Assembly (NCBI GenBank): GCA_024137785.1
Contig: JAHRHZ010000012.1
Location: forward strand, 69,347,286 to 69,411,285
Length of the DNA stretch: 64,000 bases
Reading direction: 5' to 3'
DNA from: Ginglymostoma cirratum
Taxonomy: Eukaryota
Shown here: piece by piece, positions 859 to 63,417 of the stretch
How positions within the stretch are numbered: position 1 is the first letter of the stretch
Layout of the letters: the number at the start of each line of letters is the position of its first letter
Position numbers and translations under genes: made by a program
The notes under the pieces: model-generated
The model's database searches: none
What the model saw: the letters and a program-made list of their open reading frames with translations, nothing else
Told to the model about the DNA's origin: nothing

Positions 859-957
859 ACTAATTCTATAATATCCCAGTGTATTAATTAATATTTCATA
901 ATTATTGGAAAGTTATTTCTTACAGCCCCAAAATAAAAAGCAGCAAACATTTATTCC

Positions 958-1167
958 AAAAGTTTCTGGAAAAGCTCGGCAGGTCAGGCAGCATCTGTGA
1001 AGGAAAAAAAATCAGAGTTAACGTTTCGGGTTCTGAGGAAGGGTCACCGGACCTGAAATGTTAACTCTGATTTTTTTTCTTCACAGATGCTGCCAGACCT
1101 GCTGAGCTTTCCCAGCAACTTCTGTTTTTGTTCCTGATTTACAGCATCCACAGTTCTATTGGTTTTT
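958..1167. mobile_element. Head-to-head Penelope pLTR hairpin (family A, ACGTTAAC type)
   Basis: Arms about 960-1030 and 1051-1122 are reverse complements; TSD aaacattta(t/a)tcc at 945-957 and 1168-1180; the same sequence flanks the GIY-YIG fragment at 62432-63417. Confidence 0.85.
1029..1066 (+). ncRNA. Type I minimal hammerhead motif (slightly decayed)
   Basis: GGTT CTGAGGA A GGGTC-ACCG-GACCT GAAAT GTT AACT. Confidence 0.7.
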
Positions 1168-4734: not shown

Positions 4735-4858
4735 CAACTGGACCCAAATGTTAACTCTGATTTCTCTGCACAGATGCTGCCAGTCCTGCTGAGTTTTTTG
4801 AGCAATTTCTGCTTTCTTTTTTCTAATTTCCAGCTTCCGCAGCTTTTTTTGCTTTTTA
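4735..4858 (+). mobile_element. Penelope pLTR fragment (family A)
   Basis: ggacccaaatgttaactctgatttctctgcacagatgctgccag... Confidence 0.75.
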
Positions 4859-5760: not shown

Positions 5761-5984
5761 ACATAGCCAGGAGTTTGGTTGCAGGTTCCTTCAAAAATGT
5801 GAAGTATGCGATGTGATGAGTCTGTTGTTGGAGACTGGAGGGGAAGTGTTTCCAGGACCAGTGCAGTGTTGCTTTGGGGCTGGCAGAAGACAGGGGTGTC
5901 AAGGCTGATGGGAGAGTGGGAGTGTTGGGTGATAGGGGGATCATTGAGTGAATGGGGTGGAGTCAGAGCCAACAGAAGAAGGGT

Positions 5985-6663
5985 AGTATTAGAAAGAAAG
6001 GAGGAGAACACAGCCCCATCTACATCAACAGAACTGAGGTTGAGAGGGTGGAGAGCATTAAGTTCCTCAGAATGACGATAACCAACAACCTGACCTGGAG
6101 TTCAGATGTAGATGCAATGGTCAAGAAGGCACAACAACTCCTCTTCTTCCTCAGGCAGCTCAGGAAATTTGGCATGGCCATAAGCACCCTCACTAACTTT
6201 TACAGATGCACCATTGAAAGGATAACAGTCTGGAATGGCAGCTGCTCTGCCCAGGACCATAAGAACCTACAGAAGCTAATGTGCACAGACCAAACTATCA
6301 CAGAAGCCAAACTTCCATCCATGGCTCATTTATGTAGAAAGGTTGCCAACATCATCAAAGACCCATCGCACCCTGGTAATGATCTCGTACAACCTCTTCC
6401 ATCAGGCAGAAGAGAAGCCTGAACATATGCACCAGCAGGTCCAGGAACAGCTTCTTCCTGGCTGTTCTTAGATTGATGAATGGACTCTCTAGCCTCAAAT
6501 AACACTGATCTTGTTAACATTGATCTCACCTAGCGCATGCCCTGTGCAATGTAACCTGTGTGCCTCTGATCTGTACAGCCTTGCTTACAATAATCTGCCA
6601 GCACTGCTCGTAAACAAAACTTTTCACTGTACTTTGGTACATTTGACAATAAGTCAATCAATC
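5985..6663 (+). mobile_element. Rex1/Babar LINE 3' fragment
   Basis: ORF 5952..6422 HSPIYINRTEVERVESIKFL..KKAQQLLFFLRQLRKFG..NFYRCTIE; tail ttttcactgtac...tgacaataagtcaatcaatc. Confidence 0.85.
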
Positions 6664-10632: not shown

Positions 10633-11126
10633 AGAGATAACAAGCATGGGGCTGGATGAACACAGCAGGTCAAGCAGCATNNNNNNNNNNNNNNNNNNNN
10701 NNNNNNNNNNNNNNNNNNNNNNNNNNNNNNNNNNNNNNNNNNNNNNNNNNNNNNNNNNNNNNNNNNNNNNNNNNNNNNNNNNNNNNNNNNNNNNNNNNNN
10801 NNNNNNNNNNNNNNNNNNNNNNNNNNNNNNNNNNNNNNNNNNNNNNNNNNNNNNNNNNNNNNNNNNNNNNNNNNNNNNNNNNNNNNNNNNNNNNNNNNNN
10901 NNNNNNNNNNNNNNNNNNNNNNNNNNNNNNNNNNNNNNNNNNNNNNNNNNNNNNNNNNNNNNNNNNNNNNNNNNNNNNNNNNNNNNNNNNNNNNNNNNNN
11001 NNNNNNNNNNNNNNNNNNNNNNNNNNNNNNNNNNNNNNNNNNNNNNNNNNNNNNNNNNNNNNNNNNNNNNNNNNNNNNNNTTGTTATCTCGGATTCTCCA
11101 GCGTCTGCAGTACCTTTTATCTCTGA
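10633..11126. mobile_element. Head-to-head Penelope pLTR hairpin (family B) spanning the assembly gap
   Basis: gagataacaa on the left and ttgttatctc on the right; perfect 14-bp TSD cacatttgttaatg at 10619-10632 and 11127-11140. Confidence 0.8.
10681..11080. other. Assembly gap (400 N)
   Basis: N run. Confidence 1.
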
Positions 11127-11769: not shown

Positions 11770-11905
11770 CCAAAGAAGAGCTATAATGGACTCAAAAAGT
11801 TAACTCTGTTTCTCCCTCTATGACTGTTGCTGGAGCTGCTGAATTTCTCCAGCACTTGCTGTTTTTATTTCAGATCTCTGGCATCCACAGTATTCTGCAT
11901 TTATT
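11770..11905 (+). mobile_element. Penelope pLTR fragment (family A-related, old)
   Basis: aagaagagc...ggactcaaaaagttaactctgtttctc...gctgaatttctccagca. Confidence 0.65.
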
Positions 11906-13306: not shown

Positions 13307-13961
13307 TTTGATTTGATTTGATTTATTATTGTCACATATACTGAGATACAGTGAAAATTATTGTTTTACATGCTAACCAGACAAATCATACTTTACATAA
13401 GTACAACTGAGCAATAGAAGAGAATGCAGAATATAGTTTTACCAGCTACAGAGAAGGTTTAGAGGAAGATCAACCGTAATATATGAGAGGTCCATTCAAA
13501 GGTCTGATAACAGCAGGGAAGAAGCTGTTCTTGAATCTGTCGGTAGTTGTTTTCAAACTTTGTATCTTCTACTTGATGGAAGAGGGTGGAAGAGATTATA
13601 ACAGGGTGGGAGGGGTCTTTGATTATGTTGGTTGCTTTCCCAAGAGAGCAGGAAATATAGATGGCGTCAATGGAAGGACGGCTAGCTTCAGCGATGGGCT
13701 GGGCTGCATTCACAACTCACTGTAATTTCTTGCTACCTTGGGCAGTGCAATTGCCATACCAATCTATGAAGCATCTGGATAAGATATTTTCTATGGTGCA
13801 TCTATAAAAATTGGTAAGAGTGATTGTAGACATGCTGAATTTCCTTAGCCTTCTGAGGAAGTAGAGGCATTGGTATGCTTTCTTCCATGTAGCCTCACTG
13901 TGGACGGACCAGGATAGATTGTTGGCAATATTTAATCCTAGAAAATTGAAGCTGTTGACTA
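13307..13961 (-). mobile_element. Rex1/Babar LINE, 3' part (split by the Penelope insertion)
   Basis: ORF 13717..14001 FNFLGLNIANNLSWS..KKAYQCLYFLRRLRKF..NFYRCTIE; (aaatc)n tail at 13307-13325. Confidence 0.85.
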
Positions 13962-13997
13962 TTGAGGTTGGTTGGCTTGCCGAGCTGGTTTGTTGTT

Positions 13998-14041
13998 CCA
14001 CAGATGTTTCGTTACCGTGCTTGGTATCATCCTCAGTGTAG
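13998..14041 (-). ncRNA. Hammerhead ribozyme in the 3' pLTR (GUC to AUC)
   Basis: CTACA CTGAGGA T GATACC-AAGCAC-GGTAAC GAAAC ATC TGTGG. Confidence 0.8.
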
Positions 14042-16390
14042 CCTCTGAGGAAGCATTGGTGTGTTTTCCCGCCTGGTTTTTAAACTCTGGGGTCTGTTGC
14101 AGTGGATTGCCTCACTTCCGGGTTTCCTCCATAGTGGAATGTGTATGGGGTCGAGTTCAATGTGTTTATTAATAGCATGCTTCGTGGAGTGCCATGCTTC
14201 CAGGAATTCTTGTGCCTGTCTCTGCCTAGCCTGTCCCAGGATCTTGGTGTTGTCCCAGTCGAAGTCATGGTTCTCCTTGTCCATGTGGATTGAGATGAGT
14301 GAGTATTGGTCGTGTCTTTTTGTAGCCAGTTGGTGTTCATGTACTCTTGTTGTTAGTTTCCTTCCTGTTTGTCCGATGTAGTGTTTCTCACAGTCTCTGC
14401 AGGGGATCTTGTAGATGACATTGGTCCTGTCCATGGTGGGGAGTGGGTCATTAGTTCGAGTGAGCAGTTGTCGTACGGTTGATGTGGGCTTGTGTGCCAA
14501 TCTGATGCCCAGCAGTCGTAGAAATCTTGTGGTGAGTTCTGACGTGTTCCTGATGTAGGGTAGTGTGATGAGTGTGTCAGGGCGTGTAGAATCTTTCTGA
14601 TGCTCTTCGTCTAGGCATCTCCTGACCCAGTTCTTTGAATATCCATTATCCTTGAAACTTGGAAGAGGTATTCTTCCTCCTCTTGGCGTAGTTCTGTGTT
14701 GCTGCAGTGTGTTGTTGCCCTTTTAAATAGTGTTTGCATGAACTTCGTTTGTGTGTGCCGGGATGGTTACTGTTGAAGTTCAGTACGTGGTCTGTGTGTG
14801 TGGCTTTTCAGTGTACTTTCATTTGCAGGTCCCCATTTGTCTTGCGCTCTACCATGACGTCCAGGAATGGGAGCTGTTTGTTCTTCTCCTCCTCTCTGGT
14901 GAATTTTATTCTGGTGAGGGTGTTGTTTATGAGCTTGTGTGTCTCTTCTAATTTGGTCCATTTAACGATGACAAAGGTGTCGTCTACGTAGCGTATCCAT
15001 AGTTTAGGTTAGATTTTCAGAAGGGCAGTCCTTTCCAGTCTTTGCATCACTGCTTCTGCTATGAGTCTGGAGATATGTGATCCCATGGGTGTCCCGTTGA
15101 TTTGCTCGTATGTTTGGCTGTTGAAGGTGAAGTGGGTGGTCAGGCATAGGTCCAGTAGTTTAAGCATGTTGTCCTTGGAGATGGTTTCACTGGGGTCATG
15201 TTCTTGTTCAAGTAGTGTTGTCATGTTTCCCTTGCTAGAGGTATCTCTATTGATGTGAATAGGGCAGTGACATCAGACAATATCATGGTGTCTTCGTCCT
15301 TTGTCTTTAGTCTTTGATGGAGTTGAGGAATTCTTGGGCTGAGTGGATGGAGTGGGGTGATTTGTTGACTCTGTGCTTGAATCTTCTTTGTAGTAGTCTG
15401 GCTAATCTGTGCGATGGAGTGCCTGGTAGGGAGACTATGGGTCTGAGGGGGACTTCTGGCTTGTGCACTTTTGGGAGGCTGTAGAATCAGGATGTGTTGG
15501 TTCCTTCAGGTTTCATTCTTAAGAAGTCTGTTTGGTTGATCTGTCCTGTTTGTTTAAGTCTTTGCAGCATGTATAGGATTTTGGTGCCTAGTTGAGGTGT
15601 TGGGTCAGTCTGTACTGGTTGGTATGTGTTCTCGTCGGCGAGCAGTGCTTGTGCCTTGGAGATGTAGTCCCTTTTATTCATTATCACTGTCATACGCCCT
15701 TTGTCTGCAGGTAATATAGTGATGTTCTTGTCCTTCTTTAATCTGTCCAGGGCTTGTCTTTCCCATGTGTTGAGGGTGTTGAGTTCCCTCTTTCTGCTTA
15801 GTGTTGGGACTACTGTCTGTCTTAGAGTTTGTTGTATTTCTTCATTGATATTGTTGGTCGAGTGTGGCTTCCAGTGTAGCTAGCCATTCCGTTTTGTTGG
15901 TGTCCCTATAGTTGTCATTCAGTCCCTGGGTGAGAACGGCTTTTTCCGCGTCTGTCAGTTTCCTGTCAGAGAGGTTCCTTATCCATGTGTCAGTTCTGTT
16001 GGTGTCGTTTTTGTGGGTAAGTGTGGTTAGCTTGTCTTGCAGGGTCTGTCTTTTCTTGGCTCTTGTGGTCTGTCGGCTGATGTTAATGGCTTGTTCCATG
16101 TCGGTTGTCCAGTCTTGATAGGTAGCTTCCTGGAATAACGTTTTTTGGCGCGTAATTTCACTGTTGTATTTGTGGAGCCGGTTGTGTGTGTCGTTTATCA
16201 TTACCCTTATCATCTTGCGGCCATTTTGTTCTGCTATTTTCCGGGCTTGTAGGTTGTTGGTGGGTGGTTTGTACTTCACACTGCGTGGTAATACCTGGTT
16301 CCTGAGGCATCCATGTAGGAAGTAGAGTTGTTCACAGGTTGCGCTCTCTCATTTGGCATAGTTTTCCCATTTCCTTGCCAGTTTGAGCAT
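14033..16390 (-). pseudogene. Penelope RT + GIY-YIG endonuclease ORF, disrupted
   Basis: ATG 16390 MLKLARKWENYAK, then TGA (likely CGA decay); pieces 15842..16279, 15487..15693, 15009..15224, 14767..14961, 14033..14500 joined by stops and frameshifts. Confidence 0.9.
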
Positions 16391-16483
16391 GTTGCACCTA
16401 TAGGTCTCTAAGGTTTTGGAGTAGATCTGTAGCTCAGGTTGTGGGTGTTGAGGTTGGTTGGCTCGCCGAGCTGGTTTGTTGTT

Positions 16484-16527
16484 CCGCAGACGTTTCGTTA
16501 CCATGCTTGGTAACATCCTCAGTGCAG
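16484..16527 (-). ncRNA. Intact type I hammerhead ribozyme in the 5' pLTR
   Basis: CTGCA CTGAGGA T GTTACC-AAGCAT-GGTAAC GAAAC GTC TGCGG; all core nucleotides, 5-bp helix I, 6-bp helix II; predicted cut between 16489 and 16488. Confidence 0.9.
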
Positions 16528-16910
16528 TCTCTGATGAAGCGTCGGTGTGTTTTCCCGCCTGGTTTTTAAATTCGGGGGTCCGTTGCGATGGATTGCCTCA
16601 CTTCCGGGTTTCCTCCGTAGTGGAATGTATATGGGGTCGAGTTCAATGTGTTTAATAAGAGCATGCTTCGTGGAGTGCCATGCTTCCAGGAATTCTCATG
16701 CCTGTCTCTGCCTAGCCCGTCCCAGGATCTTGGTGTTGTTCCAGTCGGAGTCATGGTTTTCCTTGTCCATGTGGATTGAGATGAGTGAGCATTGGTCGTG
16801 TCTTTTTGTAGCCAGTTGGTGTTCATGTATTCTCGTTGTTAGTTTCCTTCCTGTTTGTCCGATGTAGTGTTTCTCACAGTCTCTGCAGGGGATCTTGTAG
16901 ATGACATTGG

Positions 16911-17449
16911 TCATCACACTACCCTACATCAGGAACACGTCAGAACTCATCACAAGACTCCTACGACTGCTGGGCATCAGAGTGGCACACAAGCCCACAT
17001 CAACCGTACGACAACTGCTCACTCGAACTAATGACCCACTCCCCACCATGGACAGGACCAATGTCATCTACAAGATCCCCTGCAGAGACTGTGAGAAACA
17101 CTACATCGGACAAACAGGAAGGAAACTAACAACGAGAATACATGAACACCAACTGGCTACAAAAAGACACGACCAATACTCACTCATCTCAATCCACATG
17201 GATAAGGAGAACCACGACTCCGACTGGGACAACACCGAGATCCTGGGACAGGCTAGGCAGAGACAGGCACGAGAATTCCTGGAAGCATGGCACTCCACGA
17301 AGCATGCTGTTAATAAACACATTGAACTCGACCCCATATACATTCCACTACGGCGGAAACCCGGAAGTGAGGCAATCCATCGCAACGGACCCCAGAGTTT
17401 AAAAACCAGGCGGGAAAACATACTGACGCTTCATCAGAGTCTGCACTGA
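16911..17449 (+). pseudogene. Inverted copy of the Penelope GIY-YIG endonuclease domain (open frame)
   Basis: ORF 16901..17449 LPYI..VIYKIPCRDCEKHYIGQTGR..REFLEAWHS. Confidence 0.9.
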
Positions 17450-17484
17450 GAATGTTACCAAGCATGGTAACTAAACATCTGTGG
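17441..17484 (+). ncRNA. Mutated hammerhead in the inverted pLTR
   Basis: CTGCA CTGAGAA T GTTACC-AAGCAT-GGTAAC TAAAC ATC TGTGG; three core changes, likely inactive. Confidence 0.7.
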
Positions 17485-17558
17485 AACAACAAACCAGCTC
17501 GGCGAGCCAACCAATCTCAACACCCGCAACCCGAGCTACAGATCTACTCCAAAACCTT

Positions 17559-17766
17559 AGCTGTTGATTATCTCCACTTGAGCAACTTTGATACAGGCAG
17601 TGGCGTATCCTCCACTCCACTTCCTGAATTTGAAGACCAGCTGACATTGAGGAAGAGATTGTTATCTTTACACCATACCACTAAGCTCTCTATCACTTTC
17701 CTGTATTCTGTCTTGTTGTTGTTTGGGAACCAACCCACTATGGTGGTGTCATCAGCAAATTTGTAA
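17559..17766 (-). mobile_element. Rex1/Babar LINE, 5' part of the copy at 13307-13961
   Basis: Minus strand encodes YKFADDTTIVG..NNNKTEYRKVIESLVVWCKDNNL.LNV. Confidence 0.85.
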
Positions 17767-17794
17767 ATGGAATTAATGTAATGGAATTAAACAA

Positions 17795-17925
17795 TTTCTG
17801 AAGAAGGGTCCAGACCCAAAACGTCAGCTTGCCTGCTCCTCTAATGCTGCTTAGCCTACTGTGTTCATCCAGCTCTACACATTGTTATCTCAGATTTTCC
17901 AGCATCGGCAGTTCCTACTATTTCT
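17795..17925 (+). mobile_element. Penelope pLTR fragment (family B) starting at an HHR motif
   Basis: TTT CTGAAGA A GGGTC-CA-GACCC AAAAC GTC AGC (G12 to A). Confidence 0.8.
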
Positions 17926-18792: not shown

Positions 18793-18905
18793 AAAAACCA
18801 AAAGAGCTGCTGATGCGGTAAATGGGAAACAAAAACAGAAACTGCTGGAAAAGCTCAGCAGGTCTGGCAGCATCTGTGAAGAGAACTCAGAGATAATGTT
18901 TCAGA
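18793..18905 (-). mobile_element. Penelope pLTR fragment (family A)
   Basis: aaaaaccaaaagagctgc...gctggaaaagctcagcaggtctggcagcatctgtg. Confidence 0.8.
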
Positions 18906-20642: not shown

Positions 20643-20730
20643 GAGATAACAAGGTGTAGAGCTGGATGAACACAGCAGGCCAAGCAGCATCAGAGGAGCA
20701 GGAAGGCTGACGTTTCAGGCCTAGACCCTC
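20643..20730 (-). mobile_element. 88-bp Penelope pLTR insertion (family B)
   Basis: Perfect 13-bp TSD ttcatcatccaca at 20630-20642 and 20731-20743; 5' end lies in the HHR CUGANGA box. Confidence 0.85.
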
Positions 20731-21484
20731 TTCATCATCCACATTTCTATTCCAAAGAGTTGATCTATGGGCAATTTTTCTTTAATTACAAGAATGGAAG
20801 AACTGGAGCACCCATATGACTTCTGAAGCCAATTCCATCATTCAACAATATTAGGCCTGAACTGTTTTCCATACCTTAATACCATTCCATACCTCCATAC
20901 CATTTTCCCATCTTAATTCTAAATCCATTAGTAACCGTGCCTAAAAAGACATCTATCAGTCTCAATTTAGGTAGTTTCAACTGAATTATTATTAGTGGTG
21001 TTTTGGGACAGAATAAATAAGTCGAGAAGAGCTGTGAATCAGATTGAACTACAAATAAATGACAGACTGACAATTGTAATAGTATCTCTCAAAAAATTAA
21101 ATCATTGTAATATGAAAAACATTACAGCTGTATATATCTTGCCCCAATGTATTACGTTTCAATGTTTTTAAATGGGTGAACCATTGGGCATGTTAGAATT
21201 TTAAAATGACAATTTTCTTTTCATCTTCTCCAGTATGTGTCAGCGCTCTCTACACTAATGTCAGCCGCTAACTTTGGAGGCTACCAACCATTTATTAGTA
21301 CCATCAGCGTAAATTATATAGGTCCTGCTTATAATGCATTAAGCACATTTCAGGACTATTTCAGGAATTCAATAAGTACTTAGCCTTTTAAAAAGTTTCA
21401 TTCAGCCAATGTCACATGCTGAAGCAATTTCAATCATCTGCTTGCATCTTATTAAAGTGTACTTACCTCAGCGATGGGATTTTG

Positions 21485-23248: not shown

Positions 23249-23481
23249 TGATAATGGGAGCTGCCGATGCTGGAGAATCTGAGATAACAAGGTGTATAGC
23301 TGGATGAACACAGCAGGCCAAGCAGCACCAGAGGAGCTGGAAAGCTGACGTTTCGGGTATGGACCCCTCTTCAGAAAATTTCTGATTTTCTGAAGAAGGG
23401 TCCAAACCCAAAACGTCAGCTTTCCAGCTCTTCTGATGCTGCTTGGTCTGCTGTGTTCACCCAGCACTACACCTTGTTATC
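23249..23481. mobile_element. Head-to-head Penelope pLTR hairpin (family B) with an HHR on each arm
   Basis: Arms 23281-23378 and 23386-23483; minus CTGAAGA GGGGTCCATACCC GAAACGTC, plus CTGAAGA AGGGTCCAAACCC AAAACGTC; TSD tc(a/g)ctcacag. Confidence 0.88.
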
Positions 23482-27080: not shown

Positions 27081-27737
27081 TCTGCTTGGACTGTAAGGGC
27101 TGCATGGACATGTCCAGGTAAAGAAGCCTAAAGCCAGGGCATTATCTGCTTCTCATCCCTGTCCTTCAAACCTAAGGTTTGACCTCTTGTTGCCCAGTGA
27201 TCATCATCATGTCTCACACAGCTGCTGCAACATGGATTCGAGAACCTGCAGATGCAATGGAGCTGCACATATATCCAGTAGCTGCATTCTTTTCTTCCGG
27301 AATATTTCCTGGGAGACTGACTGAACACACCAGTGGTTTTAAGCTGTCCCTGACCTGTTAATGAGTGCACCCTGTATCTTTGCTCACCTCCCATGTACAA
27401 CTCCACCACTTTCCTTTCCAGCTCATGTTAAATAAAAACATACTGATTACTTGGGCACTATTCAGAGTAGGTCTGCCTTGAAAGTAGCCTCCCAAACCTT
27501 GCTTACTGTACTGTGCTGCCATGATTTTGAAAACTTTCTAGGTCTTTCATAATTTGGAGTATTGCTTTAGTGATTAACTTAATAGCATATCAATTGTTTC
27601 CAACTGTGTATGCGGGCTGTCAACCATTCCCCTTTCCCATGTCACAGCTAATGTCCAGCATTGGAAAAAGGGTTGTGATTTCTGCATTCACACCCTCACC
27701 ACCACTCTTGACCCCACCCAAGTTCGATCCTGTGTCT

Positions 27738-27777
27738 AGATTTCTGATGAAGGGTTTAGGCCCGAAACGTCAAGTTT
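27738..27777 (+). ncRNA. Intact type I minimal hammerhead
   Basis: AGATTT CTGATGA A GGGT-TTAG-GCCC GAAAC GTC AAGTTT. Confidence 0.8.
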
Positions 27778-27838
27778 TCCTGCTCCTATGATGCTGCTTG
27801 ACCTGCTGTGTTCATCCAGCCCCATGCTTGTTATCTTA
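27741..27838 (+). mobile_element. Penelope pLTR fragment (family B)
   Basis: HHR followed by ttttcctgctcc..gatgctgcttgacctgctgtgttcatccagc. Confidence 0.82.
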
Positions 27839-49518: not shown

Positions 49519-50069
49519 AAAACCGAAAGAACTGCGGATGCTGTAAATCAGGAACAAAAATAGAAGTTGCTGGAAAAGCTCAGCAGGTCTGGCAGCATCT
49601 GTGAAGTAAAAATCAGAGTTAACATTTCAGGCCCGGTGACCCTTCCTCAGAACTGATGGTAGCTAAGAAAACGTCGGTTTATATGCAGAAAATAGGGAGG
49701 GGGGTGGAGCAGGGAGTAAACGATAGGATTGAGCCCAAAGAGAGAGAAGAGCCATTGGATAAACAAAGGAGTTGATAACAATCTGGATAGGAGCTATTAG
49801 TTACCAACAGTCCCCATCAACAACTATTTACCCTCCTAGCCTGATCATTATCAACTTCTTTGTCTATCCAATGGCTCTTCTCTCTCTTCGGGCTCGATCC
49901 TATCATTCACTCCCTACCCCATCTCCCTCCCTACTTTCTGCATACAAACCGATGTTTTCCCAACTCTGTTCTGAGAAATGGTCACCAGACCTGAAATGTT
50001 AACTTCGATTTTTTCTTCACAGGTGCTGCCAGACCTGCTGAGCTTTTCCAGCAACTTCTGTTTTTGTTA
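49519..50069. mobile_element. Long head-to-head Penelope pLTR hairpin (family A), arms about 230 bp
   Basis: Perfect 12-bp TSD ttgtgcaatgta at 49507-49518 and 50070-50081; HHR motifs at about 49617-49654 (minus) and 49967-50004 (plus). Confidence 0.9.
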
Positions 50070-51921: not shown

Positions 51922-52135
51922 AGATAGTAGGAACTGCAGATGCTGGAGAATCTGAGATAACAAGGTGTAGAGCTCGATGAACACAGCAGGCCAAGCAGCA
52001 TCAGAGGAGCAGGAAGGCTGACGTTTCGGGCCTAGACCCTTTCTGAAGAAGGGTCTAGGCCTGAAACATCAGCCTCCCTGCTCCTCTGACGCTGCTTGGC
52101 CTGCTGTGTTCATCCAGCTCTACAAGTTGTTGTCT
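51922..52135. mobile_element. Head-to-head Penelope pLTR hairpin (family B)
   Basis: Near-perfect palindrome centred at about 52045; TSD agccaata(t/c)ac(t/c)aag at 51907-51921 and 52136-52150. Confidence 0.9.
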
Positions 52136-53959: not shown

Positions 53960-54143
53960 TTTTACACTGGACTTCTCTACCATCTGTTACCTTGCTCTTC
54001 CTCTGACCCTGTTACAAATATAACACCTTTCCACCACCTCTCGGTTCTGACGAGTCATACTGGACTTGAAACTTTGACTCTGTTTCTCTATCCACAGATG
54101 CTGCCAGACCTGTTGAGTTTCTCCAGCATTTCCTGTTTTTGTT
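53960..54143 (+). mobile_element. Penelope pLTR fragment (family A-related) with an HHR relic
   Basis: GGTT CTGACG AGTC-ATACTG-GACTT GAAAC TTT GACT, then ctgtttctctatccacagatgctgccagacctg. Confidence 0.75.
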
Positions 54144-56751: not shown

Positions 56752-57290
56752 TAGATAACACAGTGTGGAGCTGGAGGAACACAGCAGGCCAGGCAGCATC
56801 AGAGGAGCAGGAAAGCTGATGTTTCGGGTCGGGACCCTTCTTCAGAAATGGGGAAATGGGAAGGAGGTTCTGAAATAAATAGGGAGAGGAGGGGTGGGGC
56901 TGGGGAAGGTAGGTGGGATGGCAATAGGTGAGTGCAAGTAGGCAGTGGTGGGGATTGGTCAGTGAAGTAGGAAGGGCGGAAAGGTGGGAGAGAAGATGGA
57001 CAGGTCAAGGAGGCGGGGATGAGAGGAAGGGTTGCTCATAGGATGAGGCTGGGGGTGGAGAGATTTTGAAGCTAGTAAAGTCCACATTGAGACCACTGGG
57101 TTGTAGGCTCCCAAGGCGGAATATCAGGTACTGCTCCTCCAGTTTCTGGGTGGCGTTGTTGTGACACTGTGGGAGGCCCAGGATGGACATGTCATTCAGG
57201 GAGTGGGAGGGGGAGTTGAAGTGGTTCGCGACTGGAAGGTGTTATCGTTTGTCGTGTACAGAGTGCAGGTGCTCTACAAAACGGTCTCCG
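56752..57290 (-). mobile_element. Penelope 3' fragment (family B): GIY-YIG C-terminus and pLTR with HHR
   Basis: ORF 57005..57190 MSILGL..KLEEQYLIFRLGSLQPSGLNVDF; minus CTGAAGA A GGGTC-CC-GACCC GAAAC ATC at about 56813-56848. Confidence 0.9.
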
Positions 57291-62431: not shown

Positions 62432-63417
62432 GACATAAACAGAAGTTTCTGGAAAAGCTCAGTAGGTCTGGCAGCATCTGTGAAGAAAAAATCAGAGTTA
62501 ACATATTGGGCCTGGTGACCTTCCTTCAGGACTGATGCAGCTGGGAAAACGGCAGTTTATTTGGCAGAAAATCAGGAGGGGGATAGGGTAAGGAGTAAAT
62601 GATAGGATAAAGGATAGAGCCCGAAGAGAGAGAAGAGCAGTTGGACAGACAAAGGAGTTGATAACAATTCAGCTGGGAGGGTGAATAGTTGTTAATAGGG
62701 ACAGTTAGTGACTAAGAATAGGGAGTGTGTAATGGCAGGCTATGTGGTAACAAGGCCTGGTTAGTGGGATAGGGGTCCCCAAGCGAAAAATGAGGTGTTG
62801 TTCTTCCAGCTTGCTCTGAGCTTCACTGGAACACTGCAGCAGGCCAGAGACAGAGATGTTGGCCAGGGAACAGGGTGGTGTGTTAAAGTGGCAGGCAACT
62901 CGAAGCTCGTGGTCTTTCTTGCAAGCAGAACATAGATGTTCTACGAAGCTGTTCCAGTCAATGCTTCGTTTCCCATTGTAGAGGAGACCACACTGTGAGC
63001 AGTGAATGCAGTAGACTAGATTCTGGGAAGTGCAGGTGAAGTGTTGCTTCACCTGGAAGGTATGTTTGGGCCCTTGGATAGTGGGGAGGGAGGAGATAAA
63101 TGGGCAGGTGGTGCACCTTTGCCGGTTACAGGGGAAGATGCCATGGGGCTGTGGGGGGGTTGTTGGGAGTGAAGGAAGAATGGACCAGAGTGTCCCAGAG
63201 GGAACGGTCCCTGCAGAAGACAGACAAGGCGGTGGAGGGGTGGGGGAGATATGTGTCCGGTGGTGGCATCTCGCTGGAAATGGCGGAAATGGTGTCTGAT
63301 GATCTTCTGAATGTGGAAGAGGTTTTCTTCACAGATGCTGCCAGACCTGCTGAGCTTTTCCAGCAACTTCTGTTTATGTTCCTGATATACTGCATCCGCA
63401 GTTCTTTCGGTTTTCAT
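62432..63417 (-). mobile_element. Penelope 3' fragment (family A): GIY-YIG domain, pLTR and inverted pLTR arm
   Basis: ORF 62705..63052 FTCTSQNLVYCIHCSQCGLLYNG..KLEEQHLIFRLGT; inverted arm 63322-63415; TSD ttagtg(c/t)tgcaaagg at 62417-62431 and 63418-63432. Confidence 0.92.

What the first reader, a model, noticed from the sequence alone, without database searches (positions are those of the whole stretch)
13998..16527. Tandem hammerhead ribozymes bracket the whole Penelope ORF and could excise a unit-length 2486-nt RNA
Seen: an intact type I HHR on the minus strand at 16527-16484, about 100 nt upstream of ATG 16390, and a second copy at 14041-13998. Helix I differs between them as a compensatory pair (CUGCA/UGCGG versus CUACA/UGUGG). 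Helix III is only AC/GU with no loop. Known: PLE pLTRs carry minimal HHRs with palindromic helix III, which are proposed to act as double hammerheads, as in retrozymes and newt satellite 2. Inference: cuts at 16489/16488 and 14003/14002 would release a 2486-nt RNA containing the entire RT-GIY-YIG ORF, which could be circularised. The 3' copy has C-A in helix III, so it may be weaker.
Basis: partly seen in the sequence, partly recalled or inferred. Interest (0 to 1): 0.8.

Follow-up and report, generated by a model that had tools for sequence, protein, structure and literature searches.

The report
Ribozyme overlapping a transposon's start codon
This is a dead shark Penelope retrotransposon with the self-cutting RNA motifs already known from these elements; here the motif also spells the protein's start and stop codons, so a cut would remove the start of the gene instead of releasing it whole.

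Summary
The two minimal hammerheads are real, sit at the stated coordinates 2486 nt apart, and are far above chance. A third, dead copy lies inverted at 17441-17484. Hammerheads in both pLTRs, dimer cleavage and a possible circle were all published for Penelope-like elements in 2014.

The ORF starts at ATG 16516, inside the hammerhead core, not at 16390: shark and flatworm homologues align from that Met. It ends at the UGA of the next core (UGA-GG-AUG). The cut falls 28 nt inside the coding sequence, so the cut-to-cut RNA is a circularly permuted ORF.

This copy is dead (5 frameshifts, 4 stops). The 'compensatory' pair is best read as decay, and it becomes a mismatch in the double hammerhead. 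The insertion reads straight through both cut sites, so its template was uncut or re-ligated.

Most likely the uncut tandem RNA is both mRNA and template, and cleavage is an off-switch. A translatable circle is not excluded. The start codon inside the ribozyme is already reported for one lizard element. Its spread across sharks and flatworms, and the stop-start junction, I did not find in print.

The parts
13962..17560 (.). Whole Penelope-like insertion: 1.19-unit partial tandem on the minus strand plus an inverted 5'-truncated copy
   Evidence: self-BLAST and repeats, junctions
14033..16516 (-). Broken RT + GIY-YIG ORF, AUG 16516 to UGA 14035-14033, 2484 nt; 5 frameshifts, 4 in-frame stops
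   Evidence: tblastn of P0014 starts at residue 1 = 16516; stops and frames; homologues
16484..16527 (-). Hammerhead A, intact minimal type I; C3 16522, G12 16496, GUC cut site after 16489
16514..16521 (-). UGA-GG-AUG in the core of A: U4G5A6 is the stop codon of the upstream partial unit, A9-U-G10.1 the start codon of the full unit
   Evidence: frames in all three copies; homologue N-termini
13998..14041 (-). Hammerhead B, decayed (helix II mismatch, G16.2A); its core UGA is the ORF stop; cut site after 14003
17441..17484 (+). Hammerhead C, inverted copy, catalytically dead (G8A, G12U, G16.2A)
16448..16912 (-). 5' pLTR (465 nt): 3' part of a preceding unit, coding the GIY-YIG end, the hammerhead and the first 23 codons
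   Evidence: 94% identical to 13962-14426
13962..14426 (-). 3' pLTR; ends at +69 from the core AUG, without tail
16911..17560 (+). Inverted 5'-truncated copy; ends at +109, with the tail; 2-nt overlap at the inversion junction
17521..17560 (+). 40-bp AC-rich tail (also 16447-16408 on the minus strand, 72.5% A+C there); interval between the two inferred RT start sites
   Evidence: compared with PMC11167929
13950..13962 (+). Target-site duplication, left copy (13 bp, 1 mismatch)
17559..17571 (+). Target-site duplication, right copy
16388..16390 (-).
   Evidence: Met in 5 of 94 aligned homologues
13486..13961 (-). Older LINE RT fragment interrupted by the insertion (continues at 17561 to about 17780)
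   Evidence: flank translations and 66.5% match to the LINE copy at 6123-6490

Best explanation
A decayed copy of a shark Penelope/Poseidon-type element. Its repeat unit (2486 nt) is all coding except 2 nt, and the hammerhead spans the stop-start junction, so 'two ribozymes' simply follows from a 1.19-unit tandem. SHOWN: the anatomy, the true start, the cut inside codon 10, and continuity of the insertion through both cut sites. INFERRED: both ends of the cut target site primed reverse transcription at +69 and +109 of a unit; one cDNA ran 2951 nt through two hammerheads, the other about 650 nt, and they joined head to head. A linear cut-to-cut RNA has no start codon at its 5' end and offers only 41 or 81 nt of template from those start sites, so it is neither mRNA nor template. 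The working RNA is therefore the uncut tandem transcript. The hammerhead is slow, needs a partner copy or the element's protein, and when it cuts it separates the AUG from the ORF and breaks the template: an off-switch, not a release step (inferred, untested).
For: N-terminus aligns without gaps from residue 1 with a Dicrocoelium protein (47% over 212 aa) and from the same Met with a bamboo-shark protein preceded by the core-coded A-L-R (51%). 11 of 15 homologues that start within 3 residues of this Met carry the K-[R/A]-x motif that the GAAA-helix III-cut site would encode, against 4 of 83 that start downstream and 4.9% of background windows (related sequences, not independent). Two published Cercyon hammerheads, read by eye from A9, give the N-termini of P0030 (14 of 14 residues) and P0057 (13 of 14). 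Insertion ends at +69 and +109 with a 40-bp tail match the Anolis RT start region (111-118 nt into the ORF) and tail. In that element the ORF starts at stem II, the cut is 26 nt downstream, cleavage needs protein, core mutants still insert, and no RNA-seq read begins or ends at the cut. 16 of 18 other hammerhead-fragment matches in the window run upstream across their cut site and 0 of 18 start at it. Naiad PLEs spread without hammerheads.
Against: No cleavage, expression or translation data for this family. Continuity through the cut sites fits a re-ligated circle equally well. The off-switch role is my inference; no paper I read tests it. 83 of 130 homologues start downstream of this Met (truncated models or families with another start) and 32 start upstream. 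AUG at A9-U-G10.1 occurs in only 10 of 56 published representative motifs (counted by eye), so the arrangement is not general to PLEs. The stop in the core is seen only in this family's 3 of 3 copies; fluke proteins end earlier.
Confidence: 0.6

Rival explanations
1. Circle model, corrected: in active family members both hammerheads cut, the ends are ligated, and the 2486-nt circle rebuilds the ORF and the RT start region. It is translated by stop-restart at UGA-GG-AUG and copied more than once round to give partial tandems.
For: The permuted linear unit is useless unless ligated. The unit is ORF plus 2 nt. The three pLTR copies differ in a star-like, mostly non-synonymous way (8, 9 and 8 non-CpG changes), as expected if identical at insertion. 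Proposed in 2014; non-coding retrozymes do form circles.
Against: Anolis: uncut RNA is the dominant substrate and no reads end at the cut. Minimal PLE hammerheads cleave poorly even as dimers; 8 of 9 Xenopus retrozyme dimers did not cleave. Identical copies are also expected from a young tandem source. None of the papers read reports a full-length PLE circle.
Confidence: 0.2
2. The fold matters mainly as a structure (protein-binding, or control of access to the AUG at the base of helix II); cleavage is incidental.
For: Core mutants do not affect insertion in vitro and the protein-binding region lies in the first 172 nt of the ORF. The 2014 authors allow functions other than cleavage. Helix II of copy A is predicted stable in context (pair probability 0.99-1.0).
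Against: The catalytic core is kept across distant PLEs, including those where it is not coding, and the Anolis motif does cleave, with C3/G8 rescue.
Confidence: 0.15
3. The cut RNA is translated cap-independently from the next AUG (16390), giving a protein without residues 1-42, so the reader's unit does work as mRNA.
For: 16390 is the first AUG after the cut and is in frame. Ribozymes aid translation initiation in R2 and L1Tc elements and in some RNA viruses (passages).
Against: Met at this position in 5 of 94 homologues, Thr in the bamboo-shark relative, Ala in Dicrocoelium. 89 of 151 homologues align upstream of residue 43.
Confidence: 0.05
4. As written by the first reader: this locus excises a 2486-nt RNA with the entire ORF, helped by a compensated 3' hammerhead.
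For: Copy A is intact; spacing is correct.
Against: Dead ORF; start codon upstream of the cut; three mismatches in the A+B double hammerhead.
Confidence: 0.02

Closest known systems
Minimal hammerheads of metazoan Penelope-like elements (Cervera and De la Pena 2014, PMC4209133), especially Cercyon of Clonorchis and Schistosoma
   Same: One motif in each pLTR about 2.5-3 kb apart, extra motifs on the opposite strand, long helix II, extra nucleotide after A9, G10.1-C11.1, palindromic 15.2-16.2; dimer and circle model proposed there.
   Different: In the parts I read, that paper draws the motifs in repeats flanking the ORF and does not note that they encode the start; no shark is among its 56 listed motifs.
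PAc (Poseidon of Anolis carolinensis; Frangieh et al. 2024, PMC11167929)
   Same: ORF starts at stem II, cut a few codons inside the ORF (26 nt there, 28 here), RT starts about 110 nt into the ORF, tail between two start sites, both target strands extended.
   Different: PAc is active and tested; its pLTR is described as containing UTR, and no stop codon in the core is mentioned. Here the unit has only 2 non-coding nt and the copy is dead.
Pen2a_Av of Adineta vaga and the typical Penelope insertion (PMC3846280, PMC8557442)
   Same: Two pLTRs, adjacent inverted pLTR, 30-40-bp tail at one end, short TSD, pLTR includes the first codons of the ORF.
   Different: pLTR is longer here (465 nt) and made of coding sequence.
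Non-LTR retrozymes and newt satellite 2 (PMC7229834; bioRxiv 2026.07.22.740005)
   Same: Tandem type I hammerheads with weak helix III; thought to derive from PLE pLTRs.
   Different: Non-coding, about 170-400 nt circles, canonical hammerheads with shown circular RNAs; this is a 2.5-kb coding element with no circle shown.

Membership tests
EN+ Penelope-like element | Single ORF with RT then C-terminal GIY-YIG endonuclease | tested here: met
   tblastn covers P0014 residues 1-816 in order; weak Pfam RVT_1 and GIY-YIG hits on pieces, below cut-offs; DKG and YVDD in the translation
EN+ Penelope-like element | Partial tandem forming pLTRs, inverted 5'-truncated copy, 30-40-bp tail at one end | tested here: met
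   definition
EN+ Penelope-like element | Hammerhead motif in each pLTR | tested here: met
Penelope/Poseidon clade | [quoted passage not shown] | tested here: met
   by inspection of the translation; definition
Penelope/Poseidon clade (Cercyon group) | Placement in an RT tree with named reference elements | not tested
   no named reference elements among the hits; nearest hits are shark and flatworm proteins
Minimal type I hammerhead of PLEs | CUGANGA, extra nt, G10.1-C11.1, long helix II, GAAA, palindromic 15.2-16.2, NUH, helix I 4-5 bp | tested here: met
   copy A meets all; B fails helix III and one helix II pair; C fails G8 and G12
Minimal type I hammerhead of PLEs | Self-cleavage as dimer or with protein | not testable with these tools
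   only folding energies computed
Rfam hammerhead families | Match to a covariance model | tested here: not met
   0 hits; the motif has no helix III loop
Non-LTR retrozyme | Short non-coding tandem repeat with a hammerhead per unit | tested here: not met
   unit is 2486 nt and coding
Non-LTR retrozyme | Accumulates as circular RNA | not testable with these tools
   no RNA data

The most novel reading that the evidence does not exclude
In a shark-flatworm group of Penelope elements the hammerhead is dual-coding: its core supplies the start codon, and in this family also the stop codon, so the unit has no UTR. Cleavage yields a circularly permuted ORF that only ligation can restore. Active members would then live as protein-coding RNA circles, translated by stop-restart at UGA-GG-AUG and reverse-transcribed past unit length: an autonomous, viroid-like retrotransposon cycle in a vertebrate.
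Probability: 0.17. Interest if true: 0.75.

Novelty: new member of a known kind. Interest (0 to 1): 0.33.

Why it matters
What PLE hammerheads do is an open question. This family makes it sharper: because the cut removes the start codon and leaves only 41-81 nt of template from the RT start sites, simple 'release of the element RNA' is ruled out and only two outcomes remain, silencing or ligation into a circle. Both are easy to tell apart with RNA data from a shark or fluke with intact copies. The locus itself is an ordinary dead insertion.

Tried and rejected
Rfam at gathering score and at E<=10: no hit. Word-index protein search with the N-terminal piece against longer proteins: 0 of 360 candidates; the HMMER search then found 180. 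Pfam: only sub-cut-off hits on 3 of 6 window pieces. Synonymous-site test for a non-identical tandem source (which would exclude a circle): about 3 of 9 non-CpG changes in B are synonymous, no signal, little power. Compensatory pair as evidence of selection: rejected, though my rough estimate of the coincidence is only 1-2%, so a real source variant is not excluded. Stop codon in the core as a general rule: not supported; fluke proteins end 11-28 residues after the GIY-YIG end, and two other shark proteins run into the hammerhead in another frame (gene models on possibly decayed copies). Lunse et al. (PMC5785218) is not held, so its content is unchecked. The Anolis supplementary figure gave no text and its GenBank file is unreadable here, so the PAc stop position is unchecked. 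No eukaryotic DNA collection was open (metagenome and viral contigs closed; the genome collection is prokaryotic and was not used), so no family-wide DNA alignment or nucleotide covariation count was made.

Full report
OBSERVATION. A descriptor scan found A and three motifs of other families in the window and nothing in 200 of 200 shuffles; B needs relaxed rules. Rfam does not detect them. A third copy, C, lies inverted at 17441-17484 and has lost G8 and G12.

THE INSERTION. The element spans 13962-17560: 2951 nt on the minus strand (one 2486-nt unit plus a 465-nt upstream repeat) joined head to head, with a 2-nt overlap, to a 650-nt inverted copy. It interrupts an older LINE RT fragment and has a 13-bp target duplication with one mismatch. 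One end stops 69 nt, the other 109 nt, after the AUG described below; the 40 nt between are an AC-rich tail. This is the typical Penelope insertion (passages of PMC8557442, and PMC3846280). The nearest named proteins come from bamboo, zebra and whale sharks and from flukes and tapeworms. The ORF is dead: 5 frameshifts and 4 in-frame stops. The three repeat copies carry 8, 9 and 8 non-CpG changes in 465 nt, plus 4, 13 and 5 decays at 23 inferred CpG sites.

THE ORF STARTS INSIDE THE RIBOZYME. Read from there, the protein aligns without gaps from residue 1 of an 824-aa Dicrocoelium protein (47% over 212 aa) and from Met19 of a bamboo-shark protein whose preceding A-L-R is the same core read in frame (51%). 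Of 151 homologues examined, 130 had their best match beginning in the first 70 residues; 15 of these start within 3 residues of this Met, 32 further upstream, 83 downstream. 11 of the 15 show K-[R/A]-x at residues 6-13, against 4 of the 83 and 4.9% of background windows. K-R and K-A are what GAAA followed by the palindromes ACGU or AGCU encode (inference from the code). A second search gave 8 of 9 among 120 proteins, with four near-identical tapeworm copies and two proteins shared with the first set. These sequences are related, so the counts are not independent tests. As a direct check, the published Clonorchis and Schistosoma mansoni Cercyon hammerheads, read by eye from A9, give the N-termini of P0030 (14 of 14) and P0057 (13 of 14); the GAAA column was displaced in the PDF text and I restored its position. 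The arrangement is not universal: 10 of 56 published representative motifs have AUG at this position (by eye).

THE ORF ALSO ENDS THERE. In all 3 copies the GIY-YIG frame ends at the UGA of the CUGA core (copy A has one earlier CpG-decay stop), two bases before the AUG. The unit is thus 828 codons plus 2 nt. Two other shark proteins stay open to a similar L-H-R-R-L tail and then read into the hammerhead in another frame; fluke proteins stop earlier. The stop-in-core is therefore shown for this family only.

CONSEQUENCE. The cut falls after nt 28 of the ORF. A cut-to-cut RNA carries codons 10 to stop first and the AUG with nine codons last. It also offers only 41 or 81 nt of template from the inferred RT start sites. 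Yet this insertion reads through both cut sites, as do 16 of 18 other hammerhead-fragment matches in the window, none of which starts at the cut. The template was uncut or re-ligated.

THE COMPENSATORY PAIR. The C-to-U side is a CpG decay also present in C, which lacks the partner change. B has further changes that break helix II and helix III. In a double hammerhead, helix I pairs the 5' arm of one copy with the 3' arm of the other (geometry of the published model), so B's change gives a C-A mismatch with A. The A+B structure has 3 mismatches and evaluates at -4.6 kcal/mol against -23.3 for A+A. Even for A+A the predicted minimum-energy dimer is another fold (-36.7), in line with poor activity. 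A real source variant cannot be excluded.

WHAT IS KNOWN. Cervera and De la Pena 2014 (PMC4209133; abstract, results, discussion and parts 1-2 of 3 of the supplement read) report minimal hammerheads in both pLTRs, low dimer activity, and propose cleavage, ligation to circles and more-than-unit reverse transcription. Frangieh et al. 2024 (PMC11167929; main text and part of methods read) show for Anolis PAc that the ORF starts at stem II, the cut is 26 nt downstream, cleavage needs protein, core mutants still insert, and no reads end at the cut. Arkhipova et al. 2013 note that a rotifer pLTR includes the first 12 codons (passage). Also seen: bioRxiv 2026.07.22.740005 (parts 1-3 of 5); passages only of PMC8557442, PMC13725137, PMC6765202 and PMC7229834. 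Lunse et al. was seen only as a reference title. Eight full-text searches showed no paper on a conserved hammerhead-encoded N-terminus across sharks and flatworms or on a stop-start junction in the core; the library lacks most subscription papers, and unread supplements (the PAc GenBank file, bioRxiv supplements) may bear on this.

MECHANISM. Most likely (0.6): the uncut tandem transcript is mRNA and template; the hammerhead cuts rarely, with a partner copy or the element's protein, and a cut silences that unit by removing its AUG and breaking the template. The anatomy is shown; the RT start sites are inferred from PAc; the off-switch role is inferred and untested. Rivals: a translatable circle (0.2), a mainly structural role (0.15), translation of cut RNA from codon 43 (0.05).

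VERDICT. Real feature, known kind, dead locus. The correction, a dual-coding hammerhead that cuts its own ORF, extends a single published case to sharks and flatworms and narrows an open question. Interest 0.33.

Noticed in passing
window 957-1130, 2375-2473, 4737-4815, 11795-11866, 18830-18904, 49555-49653, 49968-50066, 54043-54141, 62434-62532, 63323-63378: A family of about 100-nt hammerhead-bearing fragments (GUU site, A after A9, so no core AUG); several begin within a few bases upstream of the CUGA core; 957-1130 is a head-to-head pair.
   Followed up: partly
window 17794-17873, 20661-20737, 23299-23465, 27735-27830, 51972-52118, 56766-56849, 10641-10680: A second family of about 85-nt hammerhead-bearing fragments (GUC site), 83% mean column identity over 7 aligned copies; most begin at TTT just before the core; two head-to-head pairs. 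They look like extremely truncated or non-autonomous PLE insertions; why they break off at the 5' edge of the ribozyme is unexplained.
   Followed up: partly
homologues of window 14033-16516: Fluke and tapeworm proteins are nearly as close (42-48% in the pieces compared) as other shark families (51-57%). Old horizontal transfer between sharks and flatworms is a possibility; no tree was built.
   Followed up: no
P0004 and P0121 (shark gene models): Host genes annotated with a Penelope-derived last exon: a bamboo-shark MAP3K7 isoform ending in GIY-YIG sequence, and a whale-shark model whose Penelope match ends about where this window's tail ends, +109.
   Followed up: no
window 5952-6490, 13486-13961, 17561-17780: Decayed LINE RT C-terminal fragments of one kind; the second is split by the Penelope insertion.
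   Followed up: partly
window 10681-11080: 400-nt assembly gap (N) inside one of the short hammerhead-family elements.
   Followed up: no
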